Positions 5,045 through 43,641 of a stretch of DNA of 64,000 nt are shown one piece after another. The DNA lies in contig OX597831.1 in the NCBI GenBank assembly GCA_951406725.2, positions 36,208,001 to 36,272,000 of the forward strand, read 5' to 3'. The notes beneath the pieces were generated by a model. It did not search any database and had not been told where the DNA came from. It worked only from the letters and a program-made list of their open reading frames with translations. Source of the stretch: Octopus vulgaris (taxonomy: Eukaryota). Position numbers and translations under genes: made by a program. Each line of letters opens with the position of its first letter. The stretch's first letter is position 1.

Positions 5045-5200
5045 GTTGGTGCAGACATAGGGAGGTTTTCTTCTCAACTACATGATCCTGAGTTCAGTCC
5101 CACTGCGTGGCACCTTGGGCAAGTGTCTTCTATTATAGCCTCAGGCTGATAAAAGCCTTGCGAGTAGATTTGGTAGACGGAAATTGAGAGAAGCCCATCG
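5045..5200 (+). mobile_element. SINE family B, 5' half
   Basis: gttcagtcccactgcgtggcaccttgggcaagtgtcttc...gatttggtagacggaaa. Confidence 0.8.
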
Positions 5201-5866
5201 TATCACTCTCTGTCTCTCTCTCTCTCTATATATTTTTTTATGACATTGCGGAATACTACCAGAACACTATCAACAAATAGGGGAGAAATCAAGACGTCGA
5301 GCTCACAAATTATTATAACTCATAAACAATTCTATCTGGCAAGTGAAACTGTTTTGACAGAAGCAAGAGAACAGCCGAAGAGTAAAAGAAGATGACCGTA
5401 TTGGCATATCGAAAGCAAAGAAAGAATCATGTAATTCTTTGCCAAATGCTCGCTCTACCAGTGGCACAGTATATGTGAAAACCGTAGAAAATATTGCCTA
5501 AATGTCGTATAACTTAACAATTTTTATCTCATAAAATTGTATGTATATGCCTTATTTAATTAAAACTAAAAGTCGTATATTTTAACTTGACATTTCTATA
5601 CATTAATATAGATGTATATTCACTCCTTATTTAATTAAACGTACTTAAACGTACTCAAATTTCCATATTCTTCATTTGTAATCCGTTACAATTACACTTC
5701 TAGTTGATGTACGGATAAATTTGATTAGTTCAGTATTGAAAAAAGGTAAAACATTTCCACTGCAAACTTTAAAATGTGCTTCTCGCGTAAGTGGCATTTT
5801 TTGTAGTTACGACTATTTCAATTATAAACTACGTTTTACCTGTCTACATGCAAACACAGTGAGTGA

Positions 5867-5910
<44 letters not shown>

Positions 5911-5940
5911 ATTTACATATGTACACATGTACGTACCTAC

Positions 5941-6011
<71 letters not shown>

Positions 6012-6997
6012 CGCGAGTATGTGTGTGCGGGTATTTACATAAGTCTGCATGATGCATCTCATGCATGTATATACGTATACAGACACACACACATGCAAAT
6101 ATATATGTATATATGAACAAGCCTACATGCGAATGTATATTTATTGGTATATATGCTCCAAAGTGTGATACAGTTTTACACCCAGGTGATGCAGTTTTGC
6201 ACATAGGTGATGCAGTTTTGCAACAATTTTACGTATGAACACAGTTTGCAAAAAGTTTATTGGTTTTCCTGATACTTGCATCTGCTATCCACACCCCGCA
6301 AAATATCCGGACATATATTTTCTAATTAAATATCTTAATTCTATTTATGGAAAAAGTGTACGTTTGTGAATGCTAAAAAAAAAAAATAAATAAACAAGAC
6401 AATTTATTACATCAATTTGTTCAAACTTTTGAAATAAAACGTTTTCTCACAAAATGAAAAATAAATTCCTTATAAGTTATATATTTGTTTATTTTAATTT
6501 AAGTTCATTATTTTTGTTTTGTTGAATTTTCATGAAGTTCAAATTGAGCCATATTTTTTACCTGCTTGGGTGAACAATTCTGAGTGAATCAAAATTTTCC
6601 GCACAAACTGAATTTTGTCAGTATCCTTTTTAAAAGCAATTTATCTAAAATATGGTAAATTCATATGGCCATATATAACCCGAGCCGGCCGTATACTGCC
6701 TTTAGTACACACACACTCACACACACACACAAACCTACATATATCCATATATTTACATGCACACACAGTTTTATAATTTGATTGATAGTAACATCTAAAT
6801 TTTACTAGTCGTGCTATATTTTACTTGATAGCTTAAACATGACACAACTAGAGAGACTTCGAAGCATTGTCAACAAAAATATCATGAACACTATACTCTA
6901 TACATGTATTGAGTTCTTTGTGCTTTAAATTCAAATCTCATCAGGTCATCTGTGCCTTTTATCCTTTCTGGGCCAATAAATAAACGTACCAACAATC

Positions 6998-7235
6998 TAT
7001 TCTTCTCCTTCTTCTCCTTCTTCTTCCCCATTTTCTTCTTCTTCTTCTTCTTCTTCTTCTTCTTCTCCTTTTTCTTCTCCTTCTTCTCCTTTTTCTTCTT
7101 CTCCTTCTTCTTCTTCTTCTTCTTCTTCTCCTTCTTCTATTTCTTTTCTCCTTCTTCTCCTTCTCCTTCTCCTTCTTCTTCTCCTCCTCCTCCTTCTCCT
7201 TCTCCTGCTTCTTCTACTCTCCCCTTCCCTCTCTT
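6998..7235. repeat. (TTC)n/(CTC)n polypyrimidine tract
   Basis: Directly visible. Explains the poly-F and poly-E/R ORFs. Confidence 0.95.
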
Positions 7236-8398
7236 TCTCCCAGTAGAATAGTTCAGTCTGATGAAAAACGGACGCCGCCAACTTTAAAATCCCCAAGATA
7301 CGTCGTTTACCACGATGATGAGTCAACGATTCCATCTGTAGAATTCAAGGCAAGGCATATGTATATTACAACAAACATTAATGTTTTTGAGCACTCTCAT
7401 GGACTCCTTTTTCGGAATGTATCTTTCAACACATTTCAGAAAAAAGCTACAAATATCAATATATATACTTATACCCATCAAAAAATCAAATGTGAAAGTT
7501 ATTAAAATTAAAAATACATTAGTGGAAAATGAATTACATTTTGAAGTAGTATATTAAAACTAAGTACAGTAGTAATACATTTTACTGTTCTACACCATTT
7601 AGTTACTTCAAAATGTCTGCATCACATTTATAAATATTTCTGTCGATTTTCGAAGTCCTTCATAAATATTTATTTATATTTTTACGAAGTTTGGTTAATG
7701 CAATGAGTGAGTGTTCTTGTCAGAGCAAAGTAAAGTTAGTTACTACAAATCCTCTTATAGCGTTTAGCAGGAACGAATCGTTTATTTGGCTAAATTTGTT
7801 TATGGATTTTCCATAGGTTAGTATTTAAAATTACGCTAGCATATATAATTCGTCTCATTTAAAAAAAACAAAAAAAAAACAAATAACTTGTATATAAATA
7901 AATAAGAAAACCAAGATTTCATCTTCTAAAAACTTGTGGCACCAAATCATTCGCTGCAAAGTATCAATCAACTTTGGTGCCCAATCTTTTATGCCAACAA
8001 ACTAAAATCAAGAAACAAAGATATTTCAAAAATATTCAATGCTTTCTTGTAGCTGAAAAAGAACACTGAGGCAATATTATATCAATAATCTATAAAATAC
8101 ACTTATAGCAACAAAAATATGGCGCCTCTATAAATCTTCATTTGAATTTGGAGAGCGCAGTGACCATCAAGGTTCGTCTTCACTCATGTTGTTTTTCTAC
8201 GCAATGCCTTTTATGAAGAAAACGGTCTCTCTTTATAGATTTGCAACAAGACAGTCTCTTGCCCACGGCATTTATGAATGAATGCCAAGAAGTTTATGTT
8301 CCCCTTGGATAGAATAAAAACCACCAGTTTATTTTGCTTGACAACCCCCAACTTTAAGTAATATGATACATACGCGCATAAAGACAGGTATATACCCA

Positions 8399-11500: not shown

Positions 11501-12142
11501 ATGAGATTAGTGATATTATTTTGTAGCATTTCCCGTGAAACTGTCAACTTCAGTTCCCTTATCACGTGTTAGTATGCCGGAATGCTTTCTGAAAGAAAGG
11601 CGTAAAACTAAGGAAGATCGCTTCACTTCGTAAAAATGCAAAAATGAAAAAGAAAAATACAAACCGTAAAATATATAAATCAGAAAAAAAATATAGAAAA
11701 CGAAAAATCACATATCTCTGATCTATATGTATATGAGAGTTGCTTGATTAAATCTATCTATTACCTTTCTTGCCTTTCTGTTTTTATCTTTCGTCTTATA
11801 TAGAATGTTATAAACTACGATCTGCAATGTAACGGGCAAACGTAAAGAAACTGAAGAACGGCCTTTTCAATGCAGTCATATCAACACACACACACTCAAT
11901 ATAATACAGGCACACACACACACATATATATATATAAAGCAAATACACAAACACACACACACGTTACTAATAATGGGGGAGAAAAACTAAGGATACGATG
12001 TTGGTACTAGGACGAAAAGAATTCTCAACTCATTTTGCAAACAACCCTCTTTGATTTTCATAAAAATATATACGTATATATATATATATATACATACATA
12101 CATTATATTAATATATACGTATATATATATATACATACATAC

Positions 12143-12202
<60 letters not shown>

Positions 12203-12376
12203 CTAGCAGAAAGTCAGCCCTTCAAGCAGTTTTCTGTTTTTCAAATATGGAGTATGTGTGTGTTTATATTAGAGAGACTGTGTATGTGTGTGTGTAAGAG
12301 AGAGAACATTGGAAACAGTGGATATCGTTTGGATAATAGTCGTATTGTTTTAACACTTTGTAGAATATTCCTATTA

Positions 12377-12740
12377 TTCGAGCTTTGGTGTTGGAGAAGA
12401 CTTTTACGGATTCCATGGACAGCGAGGCTCACCAATGGAGAAGTTCTTAAGCAGATAAGGCCGAAAATGCCGCTAGAAGCTAGGATCACCGAGCATAGAT
12501 TGGCATATTTCGGTCATATTATGCGGAGAAAATCCCTGGAGAAGGACATCATGCTCGGAATGGTCAGTGGCAAGAGAGGAAGAGGCCGACCAAGAACTCG
12601 CTGGCATGACACCATCAAGAGTGATACCGGAATGGACATAGCCAATCTGAAAGAAGCGGCCCAGGATAGAACTGACTGGAGGACACTGATCCAACGAGTG
12701 ACCGAGAGTCGACTTCGACTGAGCGGATAGAGATAGGTGA
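12377..12740 (+). mobile_element. RTE-clade (BovB-like) LINE 3' fragment, ORF C-terminus
   Basis: FELWCWRRLLRIPWTARLTN...LAYFGHIMRR..SLEKDIMLG.V.GKR.RGRPRTRW.D.I...DRTDWR is the characteristic RTE/BovB-type C-terminus. Open to the stop at 12730. Confidence 0.9.
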
Positions 12741-40382: not shown

Positions 40383-40690
40383 ATGCGCCCTTTTCAAGCC
40401 TAGCCAGTTTCATGGACCCGGTTTCCCGGTTTCTGTGGCGTATGTGTTCCCCCCCAGCAGGACGGGATGCCAGTCCATCGCAGCGTTACTCAAGAAACAT
40501 GAAGAGAGAGTGACAGAAAGTTGGGGCGAAAGTGTACAACAAGGGTCGTCACCCACCCCCCTGCCGAAGCCTCGTGGAGCTTTTAAGTGTTTTCGCTCAA
40601 TAAATACACACAACACCCGGTCAGGGAATCAAAACCCGATCTTCCGACCGCGAGTCCGCTGCCCTAACCATTGGGCCATTGCGCCTCCAC
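40383..40690 (-). mobile_element. SINE family C, full length
   Basis: Reverse complement ggaggcgcaatggcccaatggttagggcagcggactcgcgg...gcgatggactggcatcccgtcc...aagggcgcat. Confidence 0.88.
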
Positions 40691-40838
40691 ACATACATAC
40701 AAACATACATACATAAATACATACATACATACATATATATATATATATACATACATACATGCATACATACATACATACATACATATATATATATACATAC
40801 ACACACAAGTATACAATTTACTTACATTATATATATAA

Positions 40839-40880
<42 letters not shown>

Positions 40881-40900
40881 GCGAGAAAGAAGCAACAAGA

Positions 40901-41857
40901 ATGGATAAGTTTTTAGTACAATCGTTTCATATAAAGACGGGCTTTATTAAAAGTTGCAAAAATTGCAGCAATTATAATAATACTACCAACAATAAAAACA
41001 GCAATAGTAACTATCAAAACATGGGTGAAATTAGTAACCACAGAATGACTAATAACATTAACATTAATAGTAATAATAACAATACCGATATTAATAGAAG
41101 TAATAATGTTAATAATAGAAATAATAGAAGTAAGGCTAATGGAGAAAATACGGAGAATGAAAATATCAGTGATATCTATAACAACAATATGCAGTCGGAT
41201 AAAAAGACTAACAATAATAGTAACATTACCAATAATATAAAAAATCATGGTAGGACTTTAGACCTAAAAGATGAAACAGAAGGATCAATAAATAATAGCA
41301 ATACTTTAGATATCAGCACCAACTATAAAAATATTAATAACAATAAGGACAATTATACTCATGATAATCAAAATAATAGGAACATAAGACATCTACCCAA
41401 GAATAATCCAACACCTGAAGTTGTTCCTCCTGTGTGTAAGTGTAGAATAAAATCAAAATGCCCGGCACCTGGTCTATGCGGGGAAAATAACGTAATCTAT
41501 AAATGTACCATATCCACGGAGAATAACAAATATTTTTACATTGGATGTACAATTAATTTTCTAGCCAGAGTTAGAAACCACATCTCGTCTTTTAAATTAC
41601 GTCATATAGCTGGTACCACCACACTTTCAAACAAAATCTGGGAACTCAAAAATAATAACAATAATTATAACCTTAATTGGGAAATAGTTAGGAGAGCAAT
41701 TCCGTATAAAAATAGCAGGGTTGGTTGCCAACTATGCTCCATGGAGACGTATGAAATTCTAAAGCATAGAAAACATAGAAACTTATTGAATAACCATATC
41801 GAACTAGGTCAAGTTTGTGTCCACGCTAAATTGAAGACTTTAAAATATTTTAAATGA
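40901..41857 (+). CDS. Asn-rich region plus PLE-type GIY-YIG endonuclease, 318 aa, no RT
   Basis: CKCRIKSKCPAPGLC...NVIYKC...YIGCT..F..R..NH..SF...T.LS..IW.LK...W.I...CQLC..E..EI...LLN...E...CVH, domain about 41435-41857. Uninterrupted frame. The ORF-track start at 40679 lies in microsatellite. Expression unknown. Confidence 0.8.
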   Translation: MDKFLVQSFHIKTGFIKSCKNCSNYNNTTNNKNSNSNYQNMGEISNHRMTNNININSNNNNTDINRSNNVNNRNNRSKANGENTENENISDIYNNNMQSDKKTNNNSNITNNIKNHGRTLDLKDETEGSINNSNTLDISTNYKNINNNKDNYTHDNQNNRNIRHLPKNNPTPEVVPPVCKCRIKSKCPAPGLCGENNVIYKCTISTENNKYFYIGCTINFLARVRNHISSFKLRHIAGTTTLSNKIWELKNNNNNYNLNWEIVRRAIPYKNSRVGCQLCSMETYEILKHRKHRNLLNNHIELGQVCVHAKLKTLKYFK

Positions 41858-42902
41858 TTAGAATATTCGTAACTAGATAGATAGATAGATATAACTTGAT
41901 TTTTACTAGTATAGCACTGCTTTAAGTAGATAACTAAGAGTTCTCACACTACAGTTATTTTTTTCCTATATCTGCACCAGTTTTTTGAGAACAGGGAAAT
42001 AAATAGTACTTGTACGCTGCTTAAATGAAGCTTTATTTAATTTCAAATTCATAATTTTAAATCTTAATTTTAAATCTTAATTTTAATTTTTAATTTTTAA
42101 TTCTTAACTTAATCTAATTTAAGTAACATAACTTTAATAAAATAAAATAAGTTACTAAAGCCTCATAATTCTATTTCAAAATTAAATAAATAACGCTACT
42201 CCCTCGATGATAGTATGAATATCTTCATTATGATAGACAATTCCCTAACACCTTGTAAATGATCTTCTAAGATTTGACCTGTAGTCCGTCAATGTATAAA
42301 TAATAACGGCAACTCCTTAAGACAGTAAAACGAATAAATTAAATAAATAAATTTTAATGACTTTTTGATAAGATTATACTTAGATTTTCCTAATGTATTT
42401 TCTTTTGATTTTAGCCTTTGACCCCTATACCCCTGACCTTGTTATCTCTTTAGATTCTCTTTAAATTCATAGCTGCTTTCAACGGCGTCACGTTAGCAAT
42501 AAATTAGCTGTTTTACTGGTCAAGGAATAATATTCTCCTCTAGTTCCTAGATGCCTGCAAATTAAAACCAGACTTGCCGTCTACTAATTCTTCTGTATAA
42601 CTAGAACCCTCTTTTTCTTTTTCTTTTCTCCCTTCTTTCCCTCTTTCTTTTTTCTTTCTCTTTTCTCTTTTTCTTTTTCTTCTTCTTATTCTCTTTTTCT
42701 TTTTTCTTTTTCTTTTCTCTTTTCTTTTAGTCTCCCCCCCCCCTTTTTGCTCCCTCCTCCTTTATTTTCTCTCTTTTCCTCTCTTTCCTTCCCTTTCTGT
42801 TCTTTGCCTCTCTAGAAAGCCCTTCAGCCTTTAAAAGTCAAATAGCTACAGTCTCTTGAAAATAGCAGTAATGTGATTAATGTGGCAAATACCTAATCAT
42901 AT

Positions 42903-43196
42903 AGCAAGAATTGATACCTTCCTCATTGTGTTCAACCATTGATAAATTTATCGTCTGTGAATATGAAATTCCTCTTCATTTCTCTGGAAATTTACATCTA
43001 CACCATTGGAAATTGTGCACCTATACAAAGGATTAATTCACCCTCTCTGTAATGCTAATAAGCAGGAATTGATACCCACCTCGTTGTGATTAGCCATGGA
43101 TAAATTTGTCGTCTGTGAGTATGTAATCCCTCCTCATATCTCTGGAAATTCATATGTACACTATGGATTAAGTCACCTTCTCTGTGATGGTATTAA
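42903..43196 (+). repeat. Diverged tandem repeat, two units of about 140-158 bp, in the PLE 3' region
   Basis: agca.gaattgatacc...gataaattt.tcgtctgtga.tatg...tctctggaaatt...ggattaa.tcacc.tctctgt at 42903 and 43060. Confidence 0.85.
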
Positions 43197-43342
43197 AACT
43201 TTTTAAAAAATCTGTGATAAGACTGTGCATCATCTTTAAAGAACTTTAATGAACTTTGGAAATCTGTTTATGTTACTTAATTATCTACATTACTTCATGA
43301 GTATAGCCTCAACCACTAAGATGTCTAGAGAACTCACATGTA

Positions 43343-43433
43343 TTTTAGCTGATGAGTACGGGACACGTTTATATGCTGCAATTTTTGCAACTTTTAATAA
43401 AGCCTGTCTTTGTATGAAACGATTGTACTAAAA
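43343..43433 (+). ncRNA. Type I hammerhead ribozyme with extended stem II
   Basis: ttttag-CTGATGA-[60-nt hairpin gtacgggacac...tgtctttgtat]-GAAA-cgattg-TA-ctaaaa. Stem I is 6 bp. Predicted cleavage after GUA at 43427. Confidence 0.85.
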
Positions 43434-43576
43434 ACTTATCCATTCTTGTTGCTTCTTTCTCGCTTATAATCACCCCACATTACTGTATGGTTAAAACCGT
43501 ATAGTTTTTTGGTGCATCTAAGTTAGGTACCATATTCAAGTAAATTCATTAAAATTGACTTGAATCTTTATTGCTT

Positions 43577-43641
<65 letters not shown>

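What the first reader, a model, noticed from the sequence alone, without database searches (positions are those of the whole stretch)
40881..43580. RT-less Penelope element whose inverted terminus supplies an in-frame ATG to an intact GIY-YIG ORF
Seen: the first 90 bp are an inverted copy of the 3' terminus (2 mismatches, so young). Read antisense, this copy gives ATG 40901 (MDKFLVQSF...), which runs without a stop through about 150 Asn-rich residues into a complete GIY-YIG domain with CxC-x5-C-x4-C, CxxC and terminal CxH motifs. No RT is present. Established: 5'-truncated PLEs often carry an inverted partial terminal repeat. Inference: the cysteine pattern suggests the Naiad group, and the rearrangement created a potential stand-alone endonuclease gene. 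The long Asn-rich stretch where an RT-EN linker is expected is unusual.
Basis: partly seen in the sequence, partly recalled or inferred. Interest (0 to 1): 0.72.

Follow-up and report, generated by a model that had tools for sequence, protein, structure and literature searches.

The report
Truncated Hydra-clade Penelope, mirrored start codon
This is one shortened, likely dead copy of a common Penelope-type jumping gene of the known Hydra group; the start codon in its flipped end mirrors the element's own start, because the element's RNA is predicted to fold a stem over that start codon around the two sites where copying likely begins.

Summary
The sequence features are real; the reading is mostly not. 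The element is a 5'-truncated copy of an autonomous family (4.64-kb unit, 957-aa RT plus C-terminal GIY-YIG ORF) with the Hydra motif marks; it is not a Naiad. The junction is unique in the genome. The Asn-rich stretch is the parent's own linker. 22 of 28 RT-less siblings also hold a Met-led intact endonuclease frame, and nothing shows selection on this copy. So a stand-alone nuclease gene is unlikely (about 3%).

One by-product is of more interest. The arm's ATG context equals the parent's start context over 13 nt and recurs in 66 of 68 arms. The leader RNA is predicted to pair that segment with the AUG (z -6.2). The same long-range helix, in unrelated sequence, is predicted in four other Hydra families of this genome. 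It encloses two fixed end sites, used one at each end in 70 of 70 classifiable inverted insertions. I found no paper describing this helix; it rests on folding alone. The scan has met truncated Hydra copies and double priming on other DNA before.

The parts
40693..40880 (.). Left target flank, (TACA)/(TA)n microsatellite
   Evidence: family ends abut (TA)n in nearly all loci
40881..40970 (-). Inverted arm, 90 bp, copy of 43374-43463, beginning at end site A; mismatches at 40932 and 40939
40893..40905 (+). Mirror of the anti-AUG arm; identical over 13 nt to the parent's start context in L037; holds ATG 40901
   Evidence: mirrored ATG in 66 of 68 arms
40967..40970 (+). 4-nt microhomology (AGCA) at the arm/body junction, 2 nt before the stop that closes the mirrored frame in other arms; junction unique in the genome
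40901..41857 (+). 318-aa chimeric frame: 23 antisense codons, the parent's Asn-rich linker, the endonuclease
40971..41434 (+). Second Asn-rich linker of the parent ORF (between RT thumb region and endonuclease); pN/pS about 1.2 on shared changes
41435..41857 (+). Hydra-type GIY-YIG endonuclease: CxCx5Cx5C, VIY...YIG, R/H, CxxC, E, N, CxH; no CCHH
   Evidence: motif definitions PMC8557442
41858..43342 (+). Long 3' non-coding region shared by siblings, with a pyrimidine tract (about 42590-42810) and a 104-bp imperfect direct repeat (42903, 43061)
43343..43433 (+). Type I hammerhead motif: stem I TTTTAG/CTAAAA, CTGATGA 43349-43355, long stem II, GAAA 43416-43419, minimal stem III, predicted cut after 43427
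   Evidence: sequence; kept in 6 of 6 copies checked; only stem II recovered by folding; no Rfam hit
43439..43451 (+). Anti-AUG arm, predicted to pair with the start codon in tandem pLTR-ORF RNA
43464..43577 (+). Tail between end site A (43463) and end site B (43577); present at one end only
43578..43637 (.). Right target flank, GTGTG(TA)n

Best explanation
This is a 5'-truncated, 5'-inverted and likely dead-on-arrival insertion of an autonomous Penelope-like retrotransposon with Hydra-clade motifs, and its in-frame ATG is the mirror image of a segment predicted to pair with the parent's own start codon. Shown: parent with RT, unique junction, two fixed end sites used one per end, 13-nt identity of the two ATG contexts. 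Inferred: the GIY-YIG nicked both strands of a (TA)n target and RT started cDNA at both sites of the leader RNA. The B-primed copy ran 2.6 kb and stopped in the Asn linker; the A-primed copy ran 90 nt; the two joined through 4 nt of microhomology. Nearly every arm therefore carries a start-like ATG pointing inward. Here the junction fell by chance just before the antisense stop and in frame. Predicted only: the leader helix closes a domain that presents both start sites and holds the AUG shut.
For: Siblings at 93-98% continue upstream into RT. 5 of the 99 parsed loci hold a full 952-957-aa ORF. The junction pattern has 1 match, against 1892 matches of the end motif and 195 of the endonuclease end. 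Of 74 inverted insertions, 50 are A/B, 20 B/A, none A/A or B/B, 4 unclassifiable. Two RT start sites on both nicked strands define the tail in vitro for PAc (PMC11167929). The mirrored ATG is in 66 of 68 arms and fused to the endonuclease in 1, this copy. Leader fold z -6.18, 0 of 200 shuffles as good. The 13-pair helix is unbroken in 13 of 13 leaders. The AUG pairs with the 35 nt before site A in 5 of 5 families; shuffles do so in 7/150, 15/150, 6/150, 0/50 and 7/150. All 4 private ORF changes of this copy are nonsynonymous.
Against: 4 of 4 nonsynonymous has p 0.44 under neutrality and only one change lies in the endonuclease, so the selection test has little power. The anti-AUG helix shows no double-sided compensatory change within the close families (3 one-sided changes). 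In the 58% and 48% families the duplex alone is matched by 39-74 of 1000 shuffles, and the 48% leader folds at only z -0.9 to -1.5. In the 52% family the arm lies about 180 nt after the hammerhead cut, not next to it. The 35-nt window was chosen after seeing the folds. 10 of 70 junctions are palindromic within 8 nt, which fold-back synthesis also explains. One locus of the 80% family shows A on both strands (L163).
Confidence: 0.85

Rival explanations
1. The rearrangement created an expressed, selected stand-alone GIY-YIG gene.
For: Intact 318-aa frame; strong start context (A at -3, G at +4) and all listed endonuclease motifs kept.
Against: Intactness is expected at 98.2% identity to siblings; 22 of 28 RT-less copies are equally intact. 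Single junction. 0 synonymous and 4 nonsynonymous private changes. No protein with this N-terminus among the 3 hits of 174-557 aa. The pLTR piece at the 5' end is antisense and 90 bp long.
Confidence: 0.03
2. A non-autonomous RT-less subfamily that spreads with this junction and supplies endonuclease in trans.
For: The copy keeps the cis elements (hammerhead motif, sites A and B); non-autonomous PLE derivatives exist (PMC8557442).
Against: One junction match in 2.8 Gb at up to 2 mismatches. The many hits starting at query base 87 are longer copies, not copies of this junction.
Confidence: 0.02
3. Same dead copy, but the arm arose by fold-back self-priming of one cDNA or an antisense template, with site A as a stop or cut site, not a second start.
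For: 10 of 70 junctions are palindromic within 8 nt; self-priming proposed in PMC3846280 (passages).
Against: Most junctions are asymmetric, this one strongly (90 nt against 2.6 kb). Either site can sit at either end (50 vs 20). Both sites act as RT starts in vitro in PAc.
Confidence: 0.2
4. The element is a Naiad.
For: (TA)n targeting and an upstream cysteine cluster are shared with Naiads.
Against: The endonuclease is C-terminal to RT, the motif is DKT not DKA, CCHH is absent and a hammerhead motif is present.
Confidence: 0.01

Closest known systems
Hydra clade of C-terminal EN+ PLEs (Craig et al. 2021, PMC8557442), incl. Hydra-1_Obim of Octopus bimaculoides
   Same: Single ORF, RT then GIY-YIG; RWK, DKT, CxCx5C, CxxC and CxH, no CCHH; hammerhead near the 3' end; (TA)n target; inverted 5'-truncated pieces.
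   Different: Unit 4.64 kb and 957 aa, against 2.1-2.7 kb for families listed as complete. Two Asn-rich linkers, 1.5-kb 3' region, tail of 114-118 bp instead of the 30-40 bp given for PLEs. By eye a different family from Hydra-1_Obim; no alignment or tree was run with published sequences.
PAc, Poseidon of Anolis carolinensis (Frangieh et al. 2024, PMC11167929)
   Same: Two internal RT start sites that define an optional tail; both target strands nicked and extended; hammerhead close by.
   Different: In PAc the sites lie inside the ORF (111-118 nt after the start) and the hammerhead overlaps the start codon. Here both sites lie in the 5' leader before the AUG, 118 nt apart, inside a predicted helix closed on the AUG.
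Asn-rich Penelope families of Adineta vaga (PMC3846280)
   Same: In-frame Asn-rich inserts between RT and endonuclease or around the thumb; inverted pLTRs; microhomology junctions.
   Different: Different host; inserts there are 460-554 aa at 25-30% Asn, here about 175 aa at 35-37%, varying between families (778-1072 aa ORFs).
Stand-alone GIY-YIG ORFs of Terminons (as described in PMC8557442)
   Same: PLE-type endonuclease without RT in the same frame.
   Different: Those carry CCHH and large inserts and belong to their element; this one is a single truncation product.

Membership tests
Hydra-clade PLE | Single ORF with RT and C-terminal GIY-YIG | tested here: met
   L037 957 aa, YRDD then endonuclease; 5 full ORFs. 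The window copy lacks RT by truncation.
Hydra-clade PLE | RWK motif near the N-terminus; DKG changed to DKT | tested here: met
   RRIRWKT and PADKTGN in L037
Hydra-clade PLE | CxCx5C linker; no CCHH; CxxC and CxH around E and N | tested here: met
   definition
Hydra-clade PLE | Canonical hammerhead near the 3' end | tested here: met
   Motif level only: core and three stems at 43343-43433. Folding recovers stem II only and Rfam misses it; cleavage untested.
Hydra-clade PLE | Insertion into (TA)n | tested here: met
   flanks listed
Hydra-clade PLE | Generally short (<3 kb) | tested here: not met
   unit 4636 bp; a described tendency rather than a diagnostic
Hydra-clade PLE | RT phylogeny groups with published Hydra RTs | not tested
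   Published proteins were seen only as cut text and compared by eye
Naiad | N-terminal endonuclease | tested here: not met
Naiad | CCHH in the endonuclease, DKA, no canonical hammerhead | tested here: not met
Neptune/Nematis | CX2-5CxxC linker and CCHH | tested here: not met
Domesticated stand-alone endonuclease gene | Purifying selection on this locus | tested here: inconclusive
   4 N, 0 S private changes; p 0.44 under neutrality
Domesticated stand-alone endonuclease gene | Locus-specific transcript; fixed orthologous insertion | not testable with these tools
   Only contigs of other samples were available, RNA status guessed; no relative genomes held

The most novel reading that the evidence does not exclude
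Hydra-clade PLEs share an undescribed leader RNA domain: a long-range helix clamps the ORF start codon to a segment after the hammerhead and encloses both RT start sites. It would act as the cis element for paired priming at two nicks and as a switch between translation and copying. A side effect is that almost every inverted insertion plants a native-context ATG pointing into its truncated body.
Probability: 0.5. Interest if true: 0.65.

Novelty: new member of a known kind. Interest (0 to 1): 0.36.

Why it matters
The locus itself is ordinary transposon debris. The family data bear on an open question, how PLEs make tails and inverted ends. Strict one-A-one-B ends give a genomic counterpart to the two in vitro start sites of PAc. 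The predicted AUG-closing helix names a short RNA (about 210-260 nt in four of five families) that can be probed and mutated, and intact full-length ORFs exist for an in vitro assay of a clade that, in the papers I read, had not been assayed.

Tried and rejected
Expression: no listed holder was on record as RNA. Four runs guessed to be RNA gave contigs over the ORF. The listed pieces broke at 40967/40970 with parental loose ends and showed sibling letters at 41130, 41384, 41412 and 41607 wherever covered (101 pieces not shown). Four large runs gave no attributable junction contig. These are contigs of other samples, so they are no evidence for or against expression or fixation.

Pfam, PDB sequence search, Rfam and ARAGORN found nothing relevant. 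A structure prediction of the endonuclease had not finished, so no fold comparison was made. Free folding of the hammerhead was not significant (z -0.40). The RT-less count used a wrong RT position and is replaced. One search translated the wrong strand. No hammerhead was found for L176. 11 of 110 loci fell below the 88% cut and were dropped.

Literature searches listed no paper on an AUG-pairing leader in PLEs or on a domesticated PLE endonuclease; subscription papers and bioRxiv supplements were not visible. Look-ups of earlier notes by sequence, by place and by 'leader start codon helix' returned nothing.

Full report
Observation. Bases 40881-40970 match the reverse complement of 43374-43463 at 88 of 90 positions. 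ATG 40901 reads 318 aa to TGA 41857. The first 23 codons come from the arm, then an Asn-rich stretch (55 of 150), then CxC-x5-C-x5-C, VIY...YIG, R/H, CxxC, E, N and CxH. Pfam and PDB searches were blank; the Atlas returned GIY-YIG clusters among the nearest. The arm starts 114 bp inside the 3' end. Both ends abut (TA)n.

The parent. A genome search scored 40 of 2736 candidates and found copies at 93-98%. Most begin at query base 87 only because they continue upstream with the parental sequence. L037 holds a 957-aa ORF with RT and a C-terminal endonuclease; 5 of 99 parsed loci hold full 952-957-aa ORFs. The repeating unit is 4636 bp. RWK, DKT, CxCx5C, absence of CCHH, CxxC/CxH, a hammerhead motif and (TA)n targeting are the Hydra marks of Craig et al. 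(PMC8557442; main text parts 1-6 of 10 and supplement parts 2, 52, 53 read). Naiads have an N-terminal endonuclease, DKA, CCHH and no canonical hammerhead. No tree with published sequences was run. The family is larger than listed Hydra elements (2.1-2.7 kb when complete). The host is likely an octopus: the only protein hits are named for Octopus vulgaris and O. sinensis.

The Asn-rich stretch belongs to the parent ORF and varies between families (ORFs of 778 to about 1070 aa). On changes shared by 3 or more of 52 copies, pN/pS is 0.19 in the endonuclease (9 N, 12 S) and 1.18 in the linker (28 N, 5 S). On private changes it is 0.61 and 0.65; Fisher p 0.051 for endonuclease private against shared. 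Such inserts are described in Adineta (PMC3846280, 12 of 14 passages seen).

Is it a new gene? The junction pattern matches once in 2.8 Gb, against 1892 matches for the end motif and 195 for the endonuclease end. Of 64 copies holding the whole endonuclease, 28 start downstream of the RT active site, and 22 of these have a Met-led intact frame. The first Met lies in an inverted arm in 3 of 64 and in flanking DNA in 4. The nearest siblings are 98.2% identical. This copy has 23 private substitutions against 51 siblings, 4 in the ORF, all nonsynonymous (N77S, L162I, K171T, K236I). That fits neutral decay but has little power (p 0.44). RNA data were uninformative (see Tried and rejected). I put co-option at about 3%.

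How it inserted. Copies end at two fixed sites, A and B, 118 bp apart in the reference unit. Of 110 loci, 99 parsed; 74 have an inverted 5' piece (20 loci were chosen as inverted pairs, so this is no frequency). Of these, 50 are A/B, 20 B/A, none A/A or B/B, and 4 could not be classed. In four other families 15 rows (14 distinct loci) are A/B, one is unclassed and one (L163) is A/A. Frangieh et al. (PMC11167929, parts 1-2 of 4 read, supplements not seen) showed that PAc nicks and extends both strands and starts RT at two sites that bound the tail. I infer paired priming here: B-primed cDNA of 2.6 kb and A-primed cDNA of 90 nt, joined at AGCA. Fold-back synthesis (PMC3846280) remains a rival, since 10 of 70 junctions are palindromic within 8 nt; two cDNAs ending at one RNA 5' end would give the same.

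Why an ATG sits there. The arm's CAACAAGAATGGA equals the start context of L037. In tandem copies the leader from the predicted hammerhead cut to the AUG folds at -52.4 kcal/mol, z -6.18, with a 13-bp helix between nt 12-24 and the AUG region. In 13 leaders of this and close families the helix is never broken; 3 pairs vary on one side and none on both. A neighbouring 11-bp helix has one compensatory pair. In families at 80, 58, 52 and 48% amino-acid identity over the RT N-terminal part, the predicted AUG also pairs with a segment just before site A (probability 1.0, 1.0, 1.0 and 0.75), and both end sites fall inside the enclosed domain. Shuffled leaders reach this in 7/150, 15/150, 6/150, 0/50 and 7/150; the first two families are not independent and the window was chosen after the fact. 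Against: the duplex alone is weak in the 58% and 48% families, the 48% leader is barely more stable than shuffles, and in the 52% family the arm is about 180 nt from the cut. By eye, the published Hydra-1_Ajap has 7 contiguous complementary bases and Hydra-1_Obim about 10 with a bulge between the post-hammerhead segment and the start region; Hydra-1_Crog is unclear (not computed). Because the arm lies upstream of both end sites, 66 of 68 inverted arms carry the mirrored ATG. The frame normally stops after 24 codons; only this copy's junction fell before that stop and in frame.

Verdict. The locus is an ordinary truncated Hydra-clade insertion, a new family of a known kind. The paired ends extend a known PLE feature, and earlier notes of this scan already suggested double priming (e1-10328293, e1-8662707). 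The AUG-closing leader helix was not found in six paper searches or in the scan's notes; it is a prediction, not a measured structure. The retrozyme preprint (10.64898/2026.07.22.740005, parts 1-2 of 5 read; supplements closed) added only background. Interest 0.36 overall; 0.65 if the leader domain proves functional.

Noticed in passing
P0001 and P0003: Two NCBI Octopus vulgaris gene models (named adhesion GPCR G6-like and MIB2-like, with ankyrin repeats) begin with this family's or a relative's Asn-rich linker and then switch to host sequence: exonisation of the linker or chimeric annotation.
   Followed up: no
window 40385-40690: SINE-like repeats just upstream; weak tRNA match at 40622-40678 on the minus strand (19.7 bits, below cut-off), pointing away from the element.
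   Followed up: no
L162-L181: At least four more Hydra-like families in this genome, with long open frames of 778, 842, 955-962 and 1090 aa stop to stop; the 778-aa family lacks the CxCx5C cysteines and some copies have a CCGAAGA hammerhead core.
   Followed up: partly
L163:12-2197 and 5148-7333: Inverted arms that both run past site A through a (TA)n into about 330 bp of shared sequence; the one A/A case, possibly a read-through transduction.
   Followed up: no
family ends: Most ends have an extra G between the element and (TA)n that is not in the internal template at site A; either an untemplated base or a preference for G(TA)n targets.
   Followed up: no
window 12011-12730: Frame ending in a LINE (RTE-like by recall) C-terminal remnant.
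   Followed up: no
window 42903-43006 and 43061-43164: 104-bp direct repeat at 83% identity inside the element's 3' region.
   Followed up: no
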